NCBI RefSeq assembly: GCF_009931435.1
Contig: NZ_CP043414.1
Length of the DNA: 64,000 nucleotides
DNA from: Escherichia coli
GTDB taxonomy: Bacteria; Pseudomonadota; Gammaproteobacteria; Enterobacterales; Enterobacteriaceae
Reading direction: 5' to 3' (one strand)
The notes under the pieces are model-generated. The model had not been told where the DNA came from. It made no database searches and saw only the letters and a list, made by a program, of their open reading frames with translations. Positions 18,090 to 30,157 of this stretch are shown here, piece by piece. The position numbers and the translations under genes are program-made. The first letter of the stretch is position 1; the number at the start of each line of letters is the position of its first letter.

Positions 18090-21000
18090 ATGATTACTAT
18101 TGACGGTAATGGCGCGGTTGCTTCGGTGGCGTTTCGCACCAGTGAAGTTATCGCCATCTACCCTATTACCCCCAGTTCCACGATGGCAGAACAGGCTGAT
18201 GCATGGGCCGGAAACGGCTTGAAAAACGTTTGGGGAGACACACCACGCGTGGTTGAAATGCAGTCGGAAGCGGGTGCTATCGCTACCGTGCATGGTGCTT
18301 TGCAAACTGGCGCCCTCTCAACATCGTTTACGTCATCGCAGGGTTTGCTGCTGATGATCCCAACGCTGTACAAACTGGCAGGCGAACTGACGCCGTTTGT
18401 CCTGCATGTTGCGGCTCGTACCGTTGCCACACATGCACTCTCTATTTTTGGCGATCATTCCGACGTCATGGCAGTGCGCCAGACGGGTTGCGCGATGTTG
18501 TGTGCAGCAAACGTCCAGGAGGCGCAAGACTTTGCTCTCATTACGCACATTGCGACGCTGAAAAGTCGCGTGCCATTTATTCATTTCTTTGATGGTTTCC
18601 GCACCTCCCACGAGATCAATAAAATTGTCCCGCTGGCCGATGACACTATTCTTGAACTGATGCCGCAGGCAGAAATTGATGCTCATCGCGCCCGTGCACT
18701 CAACCCGGAACATCCGGTGATCCGCGGTACGTCCGCCAATCCTGACACTTATTTCCAGTCTCGCGAAGCCACCAACCCATGGTACAACGCAGTCTATGAC
18801 CATGTTGAACAGGCAATGAATGATTTCGCTGCCGCGACAGGTCGCCAGTATCAGCCGTTTGAGTATTACGGGCATCCACAAGCGGAACGGGTGATTATCC
18901 TGATGGGCTCTGCCATTGGCACATGTGAAGAAGTGGTTGATGAATTGCTGACCCGTGGCGAAAAAGTCGGCGTGCTGAAAGTTCGCCTGTACCGCCCCTT
19001 CTCCGCCAAACACTTACTGCAAGCATTGCCGGACTCTGTTCGGATAGTGGCGGTGCTGGATCGCACCAAAGAGCCAGGTGCGCAAGCGGAACCCCTGTAT
19101 CTGGATGTGATGACTGCACTGGCAGAAGCCTTTAATAATGGCGAGCGCGAAACCCTGCCCCGTGTCATCGGCGGGCGCTATGGTCTTTCATCCAAAGAAT
19201 TTGGCCCGGACTGTGTACTGGCGGTATTTGCCGAGCTCAACGCGGCTAAACCGAAAGCGCGCTTTACGGTTGGTATTTACGATGATGTGACCAATCTGTC
19301 ACTTCCGTTACCGGAAAACACCCTGCCAAACTCGGCGAAACTGGAAGCCTTGTTTTATGGTCTTGGTAGTGATGGCAGCGTTTCCGCGACCAAAAACAAT
19401 ATCAAAATTATCGGTAATTCCACGCCGTGGTACGCACAGGGCTATTTTGTTTACGACTCCAAAAAGGCAGGCGGCCTGACGGTTTCTCACCTTCGCGTGA
19501 GCGAGCAGCCGATTCGTTCCGCTTATCTCATTTCCCAGGCTGATTTTGTTGGCTGTCACCAGTTGCAGTTTATCGACAAATATCAGATGGCTGAACGTTT
19601 GAAACCTGGCGGCATTTTCCTGCTCAACACGCCGTACAGCGCAGAGGAAGTGTGGTCGCGCTTACCGCAGGAAGTTCAGGCCGTGCTAAACCAGAAAAAA
19701 GCGCGTTTCTATGTGATTAACGCGGCGAAAATTGCCCGCGAATGTGGCCTGGCGGCCCGTATTAATACTGTCATGCAGATGGCATTTTTCCATTTGACAC
19801 AAATTCTGCCTGGCGATAGCGCCCTGGCCGAATTGCAGGGCGCGATTGCCAAAAGCTACAGCAGCAAAGGCCAGGATCTGGTGGAACGCAACTGGCAGGC
19901 TCTGGCACTGGCGCGTGAATCGGTAGAAGAAGTTCCGCTGCAGCCGGTTAATCCGCACAGCGCCAATCGACCGCCTGTGGTTTCCGATGCTGCTCCTGAT
20001 TTCGTGAAAACCGTTACCGCTGCGATGCTCGCCGGACTTGGCGATGCTCTCCCCGTTTCGGCGCTGCCGCCAGACGGCACCTGGCCGATGGGTACCACCC
20101 GCTGGGAAAAACGCAATATTGCCGAAGAGATCCCCATCTGGAAAGAGGAACTCTGTACCCAATGTAACCACTGCGTTGCCGCTTGCCCACACTCAGCTAT
20201 TCGCGCCAAAGTGGTGCCGCCTGAAGCAATGGAAAATGCCCCTGCCAGCCTGCATTCGCTGGATGTAAAATCGCGTGATATGCGCGGGCAGAAATATGTC
20301 TTGCAGGTAGCTCCGGAAGATTGCACCGGCTGTAACCTGTGCGTCGAAGTTTGCCCGGCGAAAGACCGTCAGGATCCAGAGATTAAAGCCATCAATATGA
20401 TGTCGCGCCTGGAACATGTCGAGGAAGAGAAAATCAATTACGACTTCTTCCTGAATTTACCAGAAATCGATCGCAGCAAACTGGAACGTATTGATATTCG
20501 TACATCGCAACTGATTACACCGCTGTTTGAATATTCAGGTGCTTGCTCTGGTTGTGGCGAGACGCCGTATATTAAATTGCTGACTCAGCTCTATGGCGAT
20601 CGGATGTTGATCGCTAACGCTACGGGTTGTTCTTCAATTTATGGCGGTAACCTGCCCTCTACACCGTATACTACCGATGCCAACGGTCGTGGACCGGCAT
20701 GGGCGAACTCGCTGTTTGAAGATAACGCCGAATTTGGCCTTGGTTTCCGCCTGACGGTCGATCAACACCGTGTCCGCGTGCTGCGTCTGCTGGATCAATT
20801 TGCCGATAAAATCCCGGCGGAATTACTGACTGCGTTGAAATCAGACGCCACGCCAGAGGTTCGTCGTGAACAGGTTGCAGCTTTACGTCAGCAACTCAAC
20901 GATGTTGCCGAAGCACATGAACTGCTACGTGATGCAGATGCACTGGTGGAAAAATCGATCTGGCTGATTGGTGGCGATGGCTGGGCTTACGATATCGGCT

Positions 21001-21614
21001 TTGGCGGTTTGGATCATGTATTGAGTTTGACGGAAAACGTCAACATTCTGGTGCTGGATACGCAATGCTATTCCAATACCGGTGGTCAGGCGTCAAAAGC
21101 CACGCCGCTTGGCGCGGTGACTAAGTTTGGCGAGCACGGCAAACGTAAAGCGCGTAAAGATCTTGGCGTCAGTATGATGATGTACGGTCATGTTTATGTG
21201 GCGCAGATTTCTCTCGGCGCGCAGCTCAACCAGACGGTGAAAGCGATTCAGGAAGCGGAAGCGTATCCGGGGCCATCGCTGATCATCGCTTATAGCCCGT
21301 GTGAAGAGCATGGTTACGATCTGGCACTCAGTCACGACCAGATGCGCCAACTCACTGCTACCGGCTTCTGGCCGCTATATCGCTTTGATCCGCGTCGTGC
21401 CGATGAAGGCAAACTGCCGCTGGCGCTGGATTCACGACCGCCGTCAGAAGCACTGGAAGAAACGTTACTTCACGAGCAGCGTTTCCGTCGTCTGAATTCG
21501 CAGCAGCCAGAAGTGGCAGAACAGTTATGGAAAGATGCCGCAGCTGATTTGCAAAAACGCTATGACTTCCTGGCACAAATGGCCGGAAAAGCGGAAAAAA
21601 GCAACACCGATTAA
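18090..21614 (+). CDS. pfo: Pyruvate:flavodoxin/ferredoxin oxidoreductase (PFOR)
   Basis: 1174-aa ORF. Two 4Fe-4S ferredoxin CxxCxxCxxxCP motifs (CTQCNHCVAACP, CTGCNLCVEVCP). TPP-binding region (GGDGWAYDIG). MITIDGNGAVASVAFR N-terminus typical of PFOR. Confidence 0.96.
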   Translation: MITIDGNGAVASVAFRTSEVIAIYPITPSSTMAEQADAWAGNGLKNVWGDTPRVVEMQSEAGAIATVHGALQTGALSTSFTSSQGLLLMIPTLYKLAGELTPFVLHVAARTVATHALSIFGDHSDVMAVRQTGCAMLCAANVQEAQDFALITHIATLKSRVPFIHFFDGFRTSHEINKIVPLADDTILELMPQAEIDAHRARALNPEHPVIRGTSANPDTYFQSREATNPWYNAVYDHVEQAMNDFAAATGRQYQPFEYYGHPQAERVIILMGSAIGTCEEVVDELLTRGEKVGVLKVRLYRPFSAKHLLQALPDSVRIVAVLDRTKEPGAQAEPLYLDVMTALAEAFNNGERETLPRVIGGRYGLSSKEFGPDCVLAVFAELNAAKPKARFTVGIYDDVTNLSLPLPENTLPNSAKLEALFYGLGSDGSVSATKNNIKIIGNSTPWYAQGYFVYDSKKAGGLTVSHLRVSEQPIRSAYLISQADFVGCHQLQFIDKYQMAERLKPGGIFLLNTPYSAEEVWSRLPQEVQAVLNQKKARFYVINAAKIARECGLAARINTVMQMAFFHLTQILPGDSALAELQGAIAKSYSSKGQDLVERNWQALALARESVEEVPLQPVNPHSANRPPVVSDAAPDFVKTVTAAMLAGLGDALPVSALPPDGTWPMGTTRWEKRNIAEEIPIWKEELCTQCNHCVAACPHSAIRAKVVPPEAMENAPASLHSLDVKSRDMRGQKYVLQVAPEDCTGCNLCVEVCPAKDRQDPEIKAINMMSRLEHVEEEKINYDFFLNLPEIDRSKLERIDIRTSQLITPLFEYSGACSGCGETPYIKLLTQLYGDRMLIANATGCSSIYGGNLPSTPYTTDANGRGPAWANSLFEDNAEFGLGFRLTVDQHRVRVLRLLDQFADKIPAELLTALKSDATPEVRREQVAALRQQLNDVAEAHELLRDADALVEKSIWLIGGDGWAYDIGFGGLDHVLSLTENVNILVLDTQCYSNTGGQASKATPLGAVTKFGEHGKRKARKDLGVSMMMYGHVYVAQISLGAQLNQTVKAIQEAEAYPGPSLIIAYSPCEEHGYDLALSHDQMRQLTATGFWPLYRFDPRRADEGKLPLALDSRPPSEALEETLLHEQRFRRLNSQQPEVAEQLWKDAAADLQKRYDFLAQMAGKAEKSNTD

Positions 21615-21642
21615 ATGCTCTGGATAAGGATTATCCAATTCT

Positions 21643-21680
21643 AAAAAAAAGCCCGGACGACTGTTCGGGCTTGTCTTTTT
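21643..21680. terminator. Bidirectional Rho-independent terminator (pfo on plus, micC on minus)
   Basis: Hairpin gcccggacgactgttcgggc (21651-21670) flanked by an A-run (21643-21650) and a T-rich run (21671-21680). Confidence 0.85.
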
Positions 21681-21752
21681 ATATGTTGGAAAATCAGTGG
21701 CAATGCAATGGCCCAACAGAAAATAAAATCTGTGACAATAAAGGCATATAAC
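21643..21752 (-). ncRNA. micC: MicC small regulatory RNA
   Basis: Minus-strand sequence reads GTTATATGCCTTTATTGTCACAGATTTTATTTTCTGTTGGGCCATTGCATTGCCACTGATTTTCCAACATAT...GCCCGAACAGTCGTCCGGGCTTTTTTTT, which I recognise as MicC. It lies in the pfo-ompN spacer, divergent from ompN. Confidence 0.88.
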
Positions 21753-21979
21753 TCGCGCAGAATAACGTATAGCAAATTAAAAGTATAATTTTTATTTTGT
21801 ATGTATTATCTTCGATACATTCACCAGACTTATTATCATTTCAGAGGAATTATTTGATTAAGGTTTTACTTAAGGCGTAACAAATGATATTTATCGGCTA
21901 ACTGAACTTCTCCTTTAGGATGTTTTCATTCCCCGAAATGGGGATAAAAGGCAAATAAAATAACTAAAGGATTTATTCA

Positions 21980-23113
21980 ATGAAAAGCAAAGTACTGGCA
22001 CTTTTAATTCCTGCCCTGCTCGCCGCAGGTGCTGCACATGCAGCCGAAGTTTATAATAAAGACGGCAACAAATTAGATCTGTATGGCAAAGTTGATGGCC
22101 TGCATTATTTTTCTGATAATTCAGCGAAAGATGGCGACCAGAGCTATGCGCGTCTGGGTTTTAAAGGCGAAACCCAAATTAACGATCAACTTACTGGCTA
22201 CGGTCAATGGGAATACAATATTCAGGCAAACAACACTGAATCTTCAAAAAACCAGTCATGGACCCGTCTGGCATTTGCCGGACTGAAATTTGCAAATTAC
22301 GGTTCTTTCGATTACGGACGTAATTATGGCGTACTGTACGACATCGAAGGCTGGACCGATATGCTGCCTGAATTTGGCGGTGACTCTTATACCAATGCAG
22401 ACAACTTTATGACTGGTCGTGCCAATGGCGTCGCGACTTATCGTAACACTGATTTCTTCGGTCTGGTAAATGGTCTGAACTTCGCGGTGCAGTATCAAGG
22501 TAACAACGAAGGAGCCAGTAATGGTCAGGAAGGCACCAACAACGGACGTGATGTTCGCCATGAAAACGGTGACGGCTGGGGTCTTTCCACAACATATGAT
22601 TTAGGCATGGGCTTTAGCGCTGGTGCGGCATACACCTCTTCTGACCGCACCAATGACCAGGTTAACCATACTGCGGCTGATGGTGATAAAGCAGACGCGT
22701 GGACTGCTGGGCTAAAATACGATGCTAACAATATTTACCTGGCAACCATGTATTCAGAAACGCGTAATATGACCCCGTTTGGCGACAGCGATTATGCTGT
22801 TGCAAACAAAACCCAGAACTTTGAAGTCACTGCACAGTACCAGTTTGATTCTGGTCTGCGTCCGGCAGTCTCTTTCCTGATGTCTAAAGGCCGTGACCTG
22901 CACGCTGCCGGTGGTGCAGACAACCCGGCAGGTGTTGATGATAAAGATCTGGTTAAATACGCCGATGTTGGCGCGACTTACTATTTCAACAAAAATATGT
23001 CCACCTACGTTGACTATAAAATCAACCTGTTGGATGAAGATGACAGCTTCTACGCTGCCAACGGCATCTCTACCGATGATATTGTCGCTTTAGGTCTGGT
23101 TTATCAGTTCTAA
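21980..23113 (+). CDS. ompN: Outer membrane porin OmpN (OmpC/OmpF family)
   Basis: 377-aa ORF, signal peptide [21 protein letters not shown], general-porin sequence ending ...GLVYQF. Confidence 0.95.
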
Positions 23114-23688: not shown

Positions 23689-23694
23689 CACTAA

Positions 23695-23720
23695 CGCCCG
23701 CACATTGCTGCGGGCTTTTT
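23695..23720 (+). terminator. Rho-independent terminator after uspF
   Basis: Hairpin gcccgcacattgctgcgggc followed by ttttt. Confidence 0.8.
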
Positions 23721-23863
23721 GATTCATTTCGCAAATGTGCTGACATTTTCCCCTCTAATCCGTACCATACACGCCACAGTTTTTATATCAGATTTCTTAT
23801 GCTGGGCGTTCCGGCATGACGCATACTCTTCTGATGCCATATAACGAATTGAGTCGCTTTTAA

Positions 23864-26562: not shown

Positions 26563-26684
26563 AAAAAAAAGCCGACTCATCAAAGTCGGCGTCGTACGAA
26601 TCAATTGTGCTATGCAGTAATTCAAAAAAGGAAGTAAGACAATATGGAGCGCAACGCCCATCGCTTGACGTTGCATTCACCTGC
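26563..26684 (-). ncRNA. fnrS: FnrS small regulatory RNA (FNR-activated)
   Basis: Minus strand reads GCAGGTGAATGCAACGTCAAGCGATGGGCGTTGCGCTCCATATTGTCTTACTTCCTTTTTTGAATTACTGCATAGCACAATTGATTCGTACGACGCCGACTTTGATGAGTCGGCTTTTTTTT. Intrinsic terminator at the 3' end; lies in the dbpA-zntB spacer. Confidence 0.88.
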
Positions 26685-30061: not shown

Positions 30062-30157
30062 ACCGGCGCAGAGGAGACCATGCCGGATTTAAGACGCGGA
30101 TGCACTGCTGTGTGTACTGTAGAGTCTGGCGGATGTCGACAGACTCTATTTTTTTAT
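30062..30157 (+). ncRNA. mcaS: McaS small regulatory RNA
   Basis: ACCGGCGCAGAGGAGAC...GGATGCACTGCTGTGTGTACTGTAGAGTCTGGCGGATGTCGACAGACTCTATTTTTTTAT, with terminal hairpin plus T-run. Located in the smrA-abgR spacer. Exact ends approximate. Confidence 0.8.

What the first reader, a model, noticed from the sequence alone, without database searches (positions are those of the whole stretch)
21643..21752. MicC sRNA divergent from ompN, sharing a bidirectional terminator with pfo
The minus-strand sequence GTTATATGCCTTTATTGTCACAG... matches MicC. Its terminator hairpin (21651-21670) has A/T runs on both sides and also terminates the 3.5-kb pfo transcript arriving on the plus strand. micC and the porin gene ompN are divergently arranged about 230 bp apart, which fits coordinated control of a porin and a porin-targeting sRNA.
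Basis: partly seen in the sequence, partly recalled or inferred. Interest (0 to 1): 0.25.

Follow-up and report, generated by a model that had tools for sequence, protein, structure and literature searches.

The report
Known E. coli MicC small RNA
This is the well-known E. coli small regulatory RNA MicC in its usual place between the porin gene ompN and the pyruvate oxidoreductase gene pfo (ydbK/nifJ), sharing one two-way terminator hairpin with pfo; all of it is already annotated or published, so the finding is correct but ordinary.

Summary
Rfam's MicC model (RF00121) matches window 21755..21635 on the minus strand at 125.1 bits (gathering score 90), full length. From +1 (21752) through the hairpin the sequence is identical to micC b4427 of E. 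coli K-12, with 8 T in the tail instead of 9. The flanking genes are as stated: pfo/ydbK/nifJ at 18090-21614 (+) and ompN at 21980-23113 (+), with 227 nt between micC +1 and the ompN ATG.

The hairpin at 21651-21670 has 8 T in the 10 bases after it on both strands. It folds better on the pfo strand (-15.8 kcal/mol, G.U pair) than on the MicC strand (-11.8, A.C mismatch). Published K-12 3'-end maps (TRS/Term-seq, PMC10687069) place a ydbK 3' terminus in the tail after this hairpin, equivalent to window 21671-21680. So pfo transcripts do end there. The stop is probably leaky, because ydbK and ompN are reported to be co-expressed as an operon.

Across 30 enterobacterial species loci the hairpin and the MicC T-run are invariant and pfo is always convergent. 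The pfo-side T-tract is good only in Escherichia, and Salmonella lacks ompN at this site. micC/ompN co-regulation is already published (PMC5745476).

Verdict: real, correctly read, already known. Low interest.

The parts
21643..21752 (-). micC gene (MicC sRNA, 110 nt here; +1 = G at 21752, 3' end at the end of the U-run)
   Evidence: Rfam RF00121 at 125.1 bits against a gathering score of 90, full model. Identical to K-12 b4427 from +1 through the hairpin, with 8 T against 9 T in the tail.
21738..21752 (-). MicC 5' seed (nt 1-15, GUUAUAUGCCUUUAU) that base-pairs with the ompC mRNA leader
   Evidence: 15 consecutive Watson-Crick pairs with the K-12 ompC leader at -30..-16. The extended duplex is -27.6 kcal/mol against -15.5 +/- 2.7 for shuffled seeds, and 0 of 500 shuffles reach it. 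Nt 1-21 were the search pattern, so they are identical by construction in all 30 species loci.
21651..21670 (.). Shared terminator hairpin (core GCCCGRAC-N4-GTYCGGGC; extended by A-T pairs to 21649-21672)
   Evidence: Folds on both strands: -15.8 kcal/mol on the plus (pfo) strand with a G.U pair, and -11.8 on the minus (MicC) strand with an A.C mismatch. It is the only structure conserved across 20 diverse sequences: 10 pairs, one with compensatory C-G to U-A changes. The consensus terminator scan reports it on the plus strand.
21643..21650 (-). MicC U-tail (8 T), the termination signal and expected Hfq-binding 3' end
   Evidence: 7-10 T in the 10 bases after the hairpin in all 32 sequences compared. 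Unchanged (8 or 9 T) in the five E. coli alleles aligned.
21671..21680 (+). pfo-side tail TTGTCTTTTT, where pfo/ydbK transcripts end
   Evidence: Published K-12 3' termini at 1437193-1437202 (peak 1437194) on the ydbK strand, in several data sets (PMC10687069 Suppl. Data 2 and 3). By the alignment these map to window 21671-21680, peak 21679. T count is 8/10 in Escherichia, 6/10 in Citrobacter and Salmonella, 4/10 in Superficieibacter, and it varies within E. coli.
18090..21614 (+). pfo (ydbK / nifJ), pyruvate:flavodoxin/ferredoxin oxidoreductase, convergent with micC; the stop codon lies 36 nt before the hairpin
   Evidence: 1174-aa ORF. Pfam POR_N, POR, EKR, PFOR_II and Fer4 domains. RefSeq annotation of a 99.8% identical record. 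Convergent with micC in all 29 loci with enough sequence on that side.
21980..23113 (+). ompN, quiescent OmpC-like porin, divergent from micC
   Evidence: 377-aa ORF. Pfam Porin_1 at 480 bits. RefSeq annotation 'porin OmpN'.
21759..21798 (-). micC core promoter (inferred): -10 TATTCT at 21759-21764, and a conserved A/T-rich block AAAATAAAAATTATAC at 21783-21798 that covers the -35 position (TATACT, 3 of 6 matches)
   Evidence: Positions read from the sequence relative to +1. The block and the -10 are nearly invariant across genera, including Salmonella without ompN. It does not pass the simple sigma-70 scan, so it is a weak promoter or one that depends on an activator. No experiment here.
21812..21839 (+). 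Candidate ompN promoter (TCGATA-16-TATCAT), back to back with the micC promoter
   Evidence: Consensus scan only, 9 of 12 matches, and no more sites than shuffles give. Dam et al. state that the ompN start is known only from prediction.

Best explanation
Window 21643-21752 (minus strand) is the micC gene of an E. coli strain other than K-12. MicC is an Hfq-dependent, trans-acting small RNA. Its 5' end pairs with the ompC mRNA leader just upstream of the ribosome-binding site and represses OmpC synthesis.

Transcription starts at G 21752 from a weak sigma-70-like promoter and stops at an intrinsic terminator: the hairpin at 21651-21670 followed by 8 U. The same DNA palindrome, read on the plus strand, forms a slightly stronger hairpin followed by UUGUCUUUUU. 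It serves as an intrinsic terminator, or at least a 3'-end-defining hairpin, for the convergent 3.5-kb pfo (ydbK/nifJ) mRNA. The two RNAs therefore overlap by about 38 nt at their 3' ends.

Termination on the pfo strand is probably partial. Some transcripts continue, antisense through micC, into ompN. ompN lies divergent to micC, 227 nt away, as ompC lies to micF.

Shown here: the identity, the structure, the synteny, the seed-target complementarity and the conservation. Taken from the literature: the ydbK 3' ends, micC/ompN co-induction and ydbK-ompN co-expression. Inferred: the promoter elements, partial read-through in this strain and Hfq binding.
For: - **Identity.** The Rfam MicC model matches at 125.1 bits against a gathering score of 90. 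The sequence is identical to annotated K-12 micC b4427 from +1 through the hairpin, in the same ompN-ydbK gap.
- **Distribution.** The 1-kb region is present in 5414 of 5426 complete E. coli genomes, and the terminator segment once each in 5412.
- **Target pairing.** The seed pairs with the ompC leader at -27.6 kcal/mol, with 0 of 500 shuffles as good.
- **Hairpin.** It folds on both strands with z about -5. It is conserved with one compensatory pair across genera.
- **pfo 3' end.** ydbK 3' termini are mapped at the tail after the hairpin in K-12 (PMC10687069 supplementary data).
- **Synteny.** pfo is convergent in 29 of 29 loci.
- **Co-regulation.** micC-lacZ and ompN-lacZ are co-induced by beta-lactams and by sigma-E depletion, and the 227-nt intergenic fragment matches (PMC5745476).
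- **Leakiness.** ydbK and ompN are described as co-expressed in an operon (PMC6176095 citing Fabrega 2012). The ydbK end is labelled 'AP in TU'.
Against: - No transcript data exist for this particular strain.
- No MicC-strand 3' end appears in the stored parts of the TRS tables. Either MicC is weakly expressed under those conditions or the stored files were cut.
- The consensus terminator scan does not call the minus-strand hairpin, because of the A.C mismatch.
- The pfo-side T-tract is interrupted (UUGUC...). It degrades outside Escherichia and is polymorphic within E. coli. Termination of pfo may therefore be a by-product rather than a selected function.
- Mapped 3' ends could reflect exonuclease trimming of read-through RNA rather than termination.
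Confidence: 0.93

Rival explanations
1. The hairpin is only MicC's terminator. The pfo/ydbK 3' ends seen after it are not termination products. They arise when 3'-to-5' exonucleases trim longer read-through transcripts (for example ydbK-ompN mRNA) back to a stable stem-loop.
For: ydbK and ompN are reported to be co-expressed in an operon, and the ydbK end is classed as internal to a transcription unit. The pfo-side tail is an interrupted U-tract (UUGUCUUUUU). It is weaker in other genera (6/10 and 4/10 T) and polymorphic in E. coli, which points to little selection for termination on that strand.
Against: In Escherichia the tail has 8 of 10 T directly after a 10-pair stem, which passes the intrinsic-terminator scan on the plus strand. 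The mapped peak lies 7-9 nt after the extended stem, which is the usual release distance (the distance rule is from my own knowledge). The fraction values reported for this end are high, 0.93-1.0 in the TRS tables, though I did not verify exactly what that column measures.
Confidence: 0.2
2. The convergent overlap is itself regulatory. pfo transcription (induced by SoxS or sigma-S) that reads through the hairpin runs antisense across the whole micC gene. It lowers MicC output by polymerase collision or by forming an RNase III-sensitive duplex, and it also raises ompN. Oxidative stress would thereby be linked to the OmpC/OmpN balance.
For: pfo and ompN are on the same strand, with micC antisense between them. 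SoxS-dependent co-expression of ydbK and ompN is reported. The pfo-micC convergence is conserved in 29 of 29 loci, more strictly than the micC-ompN linkage. A 2026 preprint reports that micC is needed for methyl viologen resistance in ExPEC. The K-12/window allele makes the hairpin weaker on the MicC strand than on the pfo strand.
Against: There is no direct evidence for any antisense effect. The mapped ydbK 3' ends suggest that most transcripts stop at the hairpin. Conserved synteny can simply be ancestral gene order.
Confidence: 0.1

Closest known systems
MicC sRNA of E. coli K-12 (micC, b4427; Rfam RF00121)
   Same: Identical from +1 through the terminator hairpin. Same flanking genes and spacing: 227 nt to ompN and 28 nt from the MicC 3' end to the ydbK stop. 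Same 5' seed complementary to the ompC leader.
   Different: One fewer T in the terminator tail (8 against 9), and A instead of G at position -1. The host strain lacks the Rac prophage that lies about 2 kb away in K-12.
micF-ompC divergent pair (an sRNA gene next to a porin gene that is not its target)
   Same: A porin-repressing sRNA transcribed divergently from a different porin gene, with a short shared regulatory region. The parallel and the idea of dual regulation are published (PMC5745476, PMC3617542).
   Different: ompN is quiescent under laboratory conditions, and the regulator acting on the shared region is unknown. The linkage is lost in Salmonella arizonae and diarizonae, where uspF sits upstream of micC.
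Bidirectional intrinsic terminators between convergent genes in E. coli (described genome-wide by SEnd-seq, Ju et al. 2019, cited; the paper itself was not readable here)
   Same: One GC-rich palindrome flanked by an A-run and a T-run, serving two convergent transcription units whose RNAs overlap at their 3' ends.
   Different: It is asymmetric. The MicC side has a perfect 8-U tail but a mismatched stem. The pfo side has a perfect stem (with a G.U pair) but an interrupted U-tract. Only the MicC-side tail is conserved across genera. One partner is an sRNA whose terminator also serves as its Hfq-binding module (own knowledge).

Membership tests
MicC sRNA (Rfam RF00121) | Scores above the curated gathering threshold of the family covariance model over its full length | tested here: met
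   125.1 bits against a gathering score of 90, E = 2.2e-19, model positions 1-123 of 123, not truncated.
MicC sRNA (Rfam RF00121) | 5' end complementary to the ompC mRNA leader near the ribosome-binding site | tested here: met
   Nt 1-15 pair perfectly with K-12 ompC at -30..-16. Duplex energy is -27.6 kcal/mol, and 0 of 500 shuffled seeds do as well. The ompC leader came from K-12, because ompC is not in the window.
MicC sRNA (Rfam RF00121) | Located in the intergenic region between ompN and ydbK/nifJ, divergent from ompN | tested here: met
   ORFs and Pfam domains, RefSeq annotation of near-identical records, and the K-12 annotation.
MicC sRNA (Rfam RF00121) | Rho-independent terminator with a long U-tail (3' module typical of Hfq-dependent sRNAs) | tested here: met
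   Hairpin at 21651-21670 plus 8 U. z = -4.65, with 0 of 200 shuffles as stable. Conserved in all 32 sequences compared.
MicC sRNA (Rfam RF00121) | Expressed as an approximately 109-nt Hfq-binding RNA that represses OmpC | not testable with these tools
   Known for K-12 from the literature as cited in PMC5745476. No expression data for this strain.
Bidirectional intrinsic terminator | A single GC-rich stem-loop that can form in the RNA of both strands | tested here: met
   Plus strand -15.8 kcal/mol (10 pairs including a G.U). Minus strand -11.8 kcal/mol (an A.C mismatch interrupts the stem).
Bidirectional intrinsic terminator | A U-rich tract directly after the stem on both strands | tested here: met
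   8 of 10 T on each strand in this window. The plus-strand tract is interrupted (TTGTCTTTTT), and only the plus-strand site passes the simple scan.
Bidirectional intrinsic terminator | Convergent transcription units ending at the hairpin, with mapped 3' ends on both strands | tested here: inconclusive
   The pfo stop codon lies 36 nt before the hairpin. ydbK-strand 3' ends are mapped in K-12 at the tail. The MicC 3' end comes only from the K-12 annotation; it was not found in the stored parts of the same 3'-end tables. No data for this strain.
Bidirectional intrinsic terminator | Efficient termination (little read-through) in both directions | not testable with these tools
   Literature hints at read-through on the pfo strand: a ydbK-ompN operon and the 'AP in TU' label.
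Divergent porin / porin-targeting sRNA pair (micF-ompC type) | sRNA gene divergent from a porin gene, with a short shared control region | tested here: met
   micC +1 is at 21752 (minus strand) and the ompN ATG at 21980 (plus strand), 227 nt apart.
Divergent porin / porin-targeting sRNA pair (micF-ompC type) | Co-regulation of the two genes | not testable with these tools
   Published reporter fusions show co-induction by beta-lactams and by sigma-E depletion (PMC5745476).
Divergent porin / porin-targeting sRNA pair (micF-ompC type) | Linkage conserved wherever the sRNA occurs | tested here: not met
   ompN is adjacent in Escherichia, Citrobacter, Superficieibacter and Pseudocitrobacter loci. 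In Salmonella enterica subsp. arizonae and diarizonae, uspF is the upstream neighbour and no ompN is found within about 3 kb.

The most novel reading that the evidence does not exclude
The most novel reading not excluded is that the conserved partner of micC is pfo rather than ompN, and that the shared, leaky, asymmetric terminator is a regulatory node. Under superoxide stress, SoxS-driven pfo transcription would read through the hairpin, run antisense across micC and on into ompN. It would lower MicC (by collision or duplex cleavage) while raising OmpN. This would connect the oxidative-stress phenotype recently reported for micC mutants with its convergent neighbour.
Probability: 0.08. Interest if true: 0.45.

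Novelty: already known. Interest (0 to 1): 0.08.

Why it matters
It matters little as a discovery. MicC, its position between ompN and ydbK, the analogy with micF-ompC, micC/ompN co-induction and the ydbK 3' end at this hairpin are all in public annotation or papers. The value is as a positive control for the scan: a reader with no tools placed an sRNA, its terminator and its neighbours to the base. The small additions made here are comparative. The hairpin and the MicC U-tail are invariant, while the pfo-side U-tract is lineage-specific. The pfo-micC convergence is also more conserved than the micC-ompN linkage. These points would matter only if someone tests whether pfo read-through affects MicC.

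Tried and rejected
- **3'-end tables with nothing for this locus.** The supplementary files of Adams et al. 2021 (eLife 62438) had no micC or ydbK entries in the stored text.
- **Papers not held.** I could not read the SEnd-seq paper (PMC6814526), Fabrega 2012 (PubMed 22515487) or Chen 2004 under the PMC id I recalled. The ydbK-ompN operon statement therefore rests on a secondary citation. The original MicC characterisation rests on citations in PMC5745476 and on my own knowledge.
- **Wasted searches.** A search for 'micC' plus 'bidirectional' was swamped by unrelated 'MICC...' hits. A search for 'ydbK-ompN' found nothing. One search failed on syntax.
- **Direct sigma-E promoter, rejected.** Dam et al. 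state that the intergenic region has no sigma-E core motif and that the effect is indirect.
- **Strong sigma-70 promoter, rejected.** The scan finds none on the minus strand. The best reading is a 4/6 -10 and a 3/6 -35.
- **Other conserved MicC secondary structure.** RNAalifold kept only the terminator stem. The central region (nt about 22-70) is too variable to align reliably.
- **Chance ORF.** The 63-aa ORF at 21525-21716 (minus strand) overlaps the MicC region. I gave it no weight, because it runs across the terminator and into the antisense of the pfo 3' end.

Full report
**1. What is in the sequence.**

On the minus strand, GTTATATGCCTTTATTGTCACAG starts at 21752. The stem-loop GCCCGAAC-AGTC-GTCCGGGC occupies 21670..21651 and is followed by eight T ending at 21643. 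On the plus strand the same palindrome is preceded by eight A (21643-21650) and followed by TTGTCTTTTT (21671-21680).

**2. Identity.**

A scan of the whole window against Rfam 15 at gathering thresholds gives three hits. One is MicC (RF00121) at 21755..21635, minus strand: 125.1 bits against a gathering score of 90, E = 2.2e-19, full model.

The 1-kb region around it is found in 5414 of 5426 complete E. coli genomes. The best match is 99.8% identical (goat strain R32_14_1F), and the features annotated under the match are nifJ and ompN. PGAP does not annotate the sRNA in those records. The curated K-12 MG1655 record does: micC b4427 at 1437121-1437231, between ompN b1377 and ydbK b1378.

Aligned to K-12, the window is identical from +1 through the hairpin. 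It has 8 T rather than 9 in the tail, and A rather than G at -1.

**3. Neighbours.**

- The plus-strand ORF at 18090-21614 (1174 aa) carries POR_N, PFOR_II, POR, EKR and 4Fe-4S domains. It is pfo/ydbK/nifJ.
- The plus-strand ORF at 21980-23113 (377 aa) is a Porin_1 protein (480 bits), annotated OmpN in near-identical records.
- micC +1 and the ompN ATG are separated by 227 nt, the length of the intergenic fragment cloned by Dam et al..
- The pfo stop codon (21612-21614) lies 36 nt before the hairpin and 28 nt from the MicC 3' end.

**4. Function of the 5' end.**

MicC nt 1-15 form 15 uninterrupted pairs with the K-12 ompC leader at -30 to -16. The extended duplex is -27.6 kcal/mol, against -15.5 +/- 2.7 for shuffled seeds, and 0 of 500 shuffles are as good. 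This matches the published mechanism: translational repression of ompC with Hfq, as summarised in PMC5745476.

**5. The hairpin on both strands.**

As RNA, the plus-strand version forms 10 pairs including one G.U (-15.8 kcal/mol for the stem; -17.8 with flanks, z = -5.06). The minus-strand (MicC) version has an A.C mismatch at the same position (-11.8; -14.7 with flanks, z = -4.65). That mismatch is why the simple terminator scan reports only the plus-strand site. Both strands have 8 T in the 10 bases after the stem.

**6. Does pfo really end there?**

The TRS study (PMC10687069) re-analysed Term-seq and RNAtag-seq data for E. coli K-12. Its Supplementary Data 2 and 3 list a 3' terminus cluster on the ydbK strand at 1437193-1437202 (one data set gives 1437187-1437202), peak 1437194. 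It is assigned to ydbK, with the upstream sequence ...AAAAAAAAAGCCCGGACGACUGUUCGGGCUUGUCUUUUU and a -16.9 kcal/mol hairpin. Through the alignment this corresponds to window 21671-21680, peak 21679. The two RNAs would overlap by about 38 nt (21643-21680).

There are three caveats.

- The end is labelled 'alternative primary in transcription unit'. [quoted passage not shown]
- A secondary citation states that ydbK and ompN 'were coexpressed in an operon', SoxS-dependently (Fabrega 2012 as cited in PMC6176095). pfo and ompN are on the same strand with micC antisense between them, so some read-through is likely.
- A 3' end at a stable hairpin can also come from exonuclease trimming.

I found no MicC-strand 3' end in the stored parts of these tables.

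**7. Comparative evidence.**

An exact-match scan of one genome per species with MicC nt 1-21 returned 30 loci. They come from Citrobacter, Salmonella enterica subsp. arizonae and diarizonae, several Escherichia, Superficieibacter, Pseudocitrobacter and a Raoultella-labelled MAG.

- **Synteny.** pfo is convergent with micC in all 29 loci that have enough sequence on that side. ompN is divergent in every locus with enough sequence except the two Salmonella loci. There uspF (91% identical to the window's) is the upstream neighbour.
- **Hairpin.** GCCCGAAY-N4-RTTCGGGC is conserved. Ten pairs are predicted, nine are essentially invariant, and one shows C-G to U-A compensation in three sequences. 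It is the only structure the consensus fold retains.
- **MicC-side tail.** 7-10 T of 10 in all 32 sequences compared.
- **pfo-side tail.** TTGTCTTTTT in Escherichia (8/10 T; 7/10 in one Escherichia locus, L032), TTGTCAATTT in Citrobacter and Salmonella (6/10), and TTGTCATAAA in Superficieibacter (4/10).
- **Within E. coli.** The terminator segment occurs once in 5412 of 5426 genomes. In the five alleles aligned, the differences closest to the hairpin lie in the distal pfo-side tail (TTGTCTTTTT, TTGTCTTCTT, TTGTCTCATT), while the stem is unchanged and the MicC T-run varies only between 8 and 9 T.

The element is therefore first of all MicC's terminator. Its use by pfo is real in Escherichia, but it looks like an opportunistic, weakly constrained property. 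It comes from the A-rich stretch that precedes the MicC stem.

**8. Promoter region.**

Relative to +1, TATTCT lies at -12..-7 (21759-21764), and a 3/6 -35 (TATACT) lies inside an A/T-rich block, AAAATAAAAATTATAC (21783-21798). Both are nearly invariant across genera, including Salmonella without ompN. Further conserved blocks lie 55-120 nt upstream.

The consensus scan finds no minus-strand sigma-70 promoter. On the plus strand it finds only a marginal candidate for ompN at 21812-21839, with no more sites than shuffles give.

Published data point to indirect control. micC-lacZ and ompN-lacZ rise with beta-lactams and with sigma-E depletion. micC-lacZ rises slightly in an ompR mutant. The region has no sigma-E motif. 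A genomic SELEX study lists the ompN/micC spacer among sigma-28 holoenzyme sites.

**9. Comparison with what is known, and verdict.**

This is micC itself, not a relative of it. All sequence-testable membership criteria are met. The divergent arrangement with ompN, its analogy to micF-ompC, the proposal of dual regulation and the supporting reporter data are published. The ydbK 3' end at the hairpin is in public 3'-end tables.

The finding is correct and already known, so interest is low. The only mildly open question is whether pfo read-through across micC has any regulatory consequence. A 2026 preprint reports that micC mutants of ExPEC are sensitive to methyl viologen, and pfo belongs to the superoxide response. 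That makes the idea worth a cheap experiment, but nothing here supports it directly.

Noticed in passing
window 26567-26684 (-): FnrS sRNA: Rfam RF01796 at 134.8 bits against a gathering score of 60, full length. It lies between dbpA/ynaL and zntB, by synteny with the annotated near-identical record.
   Followed up: partly
window 30062-30157 (+): McaS/IsrA sRNA: Rfam RF00115 at 117 bits against a gathering score of 42, full length.
   Followed up: no
window about 23689-23863 (uspF-ttcA junction): uspF is followed directly by an intact ttcA, then dbpA. In K-12 the 23-kb Rac cryptic prophage (1411899-1434958) and a ttcC pseudogene remnant sit at this point. This strain therefore lacks Rac, and micC lies only about 5 kb from fnrS.
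   Followed up: partly
window 21622-21636 (+): A second small inverted repeat, GGATAAGGATTATCC, lies in the pfo 3' UTR between the stop codon and the terminator. It forms a 6-7 bp stem in the fold of 21600-21690. It is retained in Escherichia alleles, and a GGTTAAT... core appears in Citrobacter and Salmonella. Function unknown.
   Followed up: no
window 21850-21885 (micC -100 to -135 region): Conserved blocks lie far upstream of micC: GTAACAA (plus strand; TTGTTAC on the MicC strand), and two TTAAGG copies 12 bp apart at 21858-21863 and 21870-21875. They are conserved across Escherichia, Citrobacter and Superficieibacter, and partly in Salmonella without ompN. They look like a transcription-factor site for the unknown micC/ompN regulator.
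   Followed up: no
L011 and L029 (Salmonella enterica subsp. diarizonae and arizonae), about 345-780 nt upstream of micC: ompN is absent from its usual position. uspF (144 aa, 91% identical to the window's) is the divergent neighbour of micC. pfo and the terminator are kept.
   Followed up: yes
window 21651-21670, stem position 21658/21663: The K-12/window allele carries GTCC instead of the GTTC found in most other species. This puts an A.C mismatch in the MicC-strand stem (-11.8 against -16.3 kcal/mol in most other species) but a G.U pair in the pfo-strand stem (-15.8). In this lineage the hairpin is stronger for pfo than for MicC.
   Followed up: partly
window about 21683-21731 (MicC nt 22-70): The central part of MicC is highly variable between genera, with a 12-nt deletion in Superficieibacter and Pseudocitrobacter. 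It also varies within E. coli. 4910 genomes match the 126-nt query by megablast, against 5412 for the terminator segment by blastn, although the two searches differ in sensitivity. One blood isolate has a rearranged middle. Only the seed and the terminator are constrained.
   Followed up: partly
ompN/micC spacer, window 21753-21979: A genomic SELEX study lists this spacer as a site bound by the sigma-28 (RpoF) holoenzyme, at low intensity 5.9. It lists the ydbK/ydbJ spacer as a sigma-S site (PMC5493296; PMC4447067).
   Followed up: no
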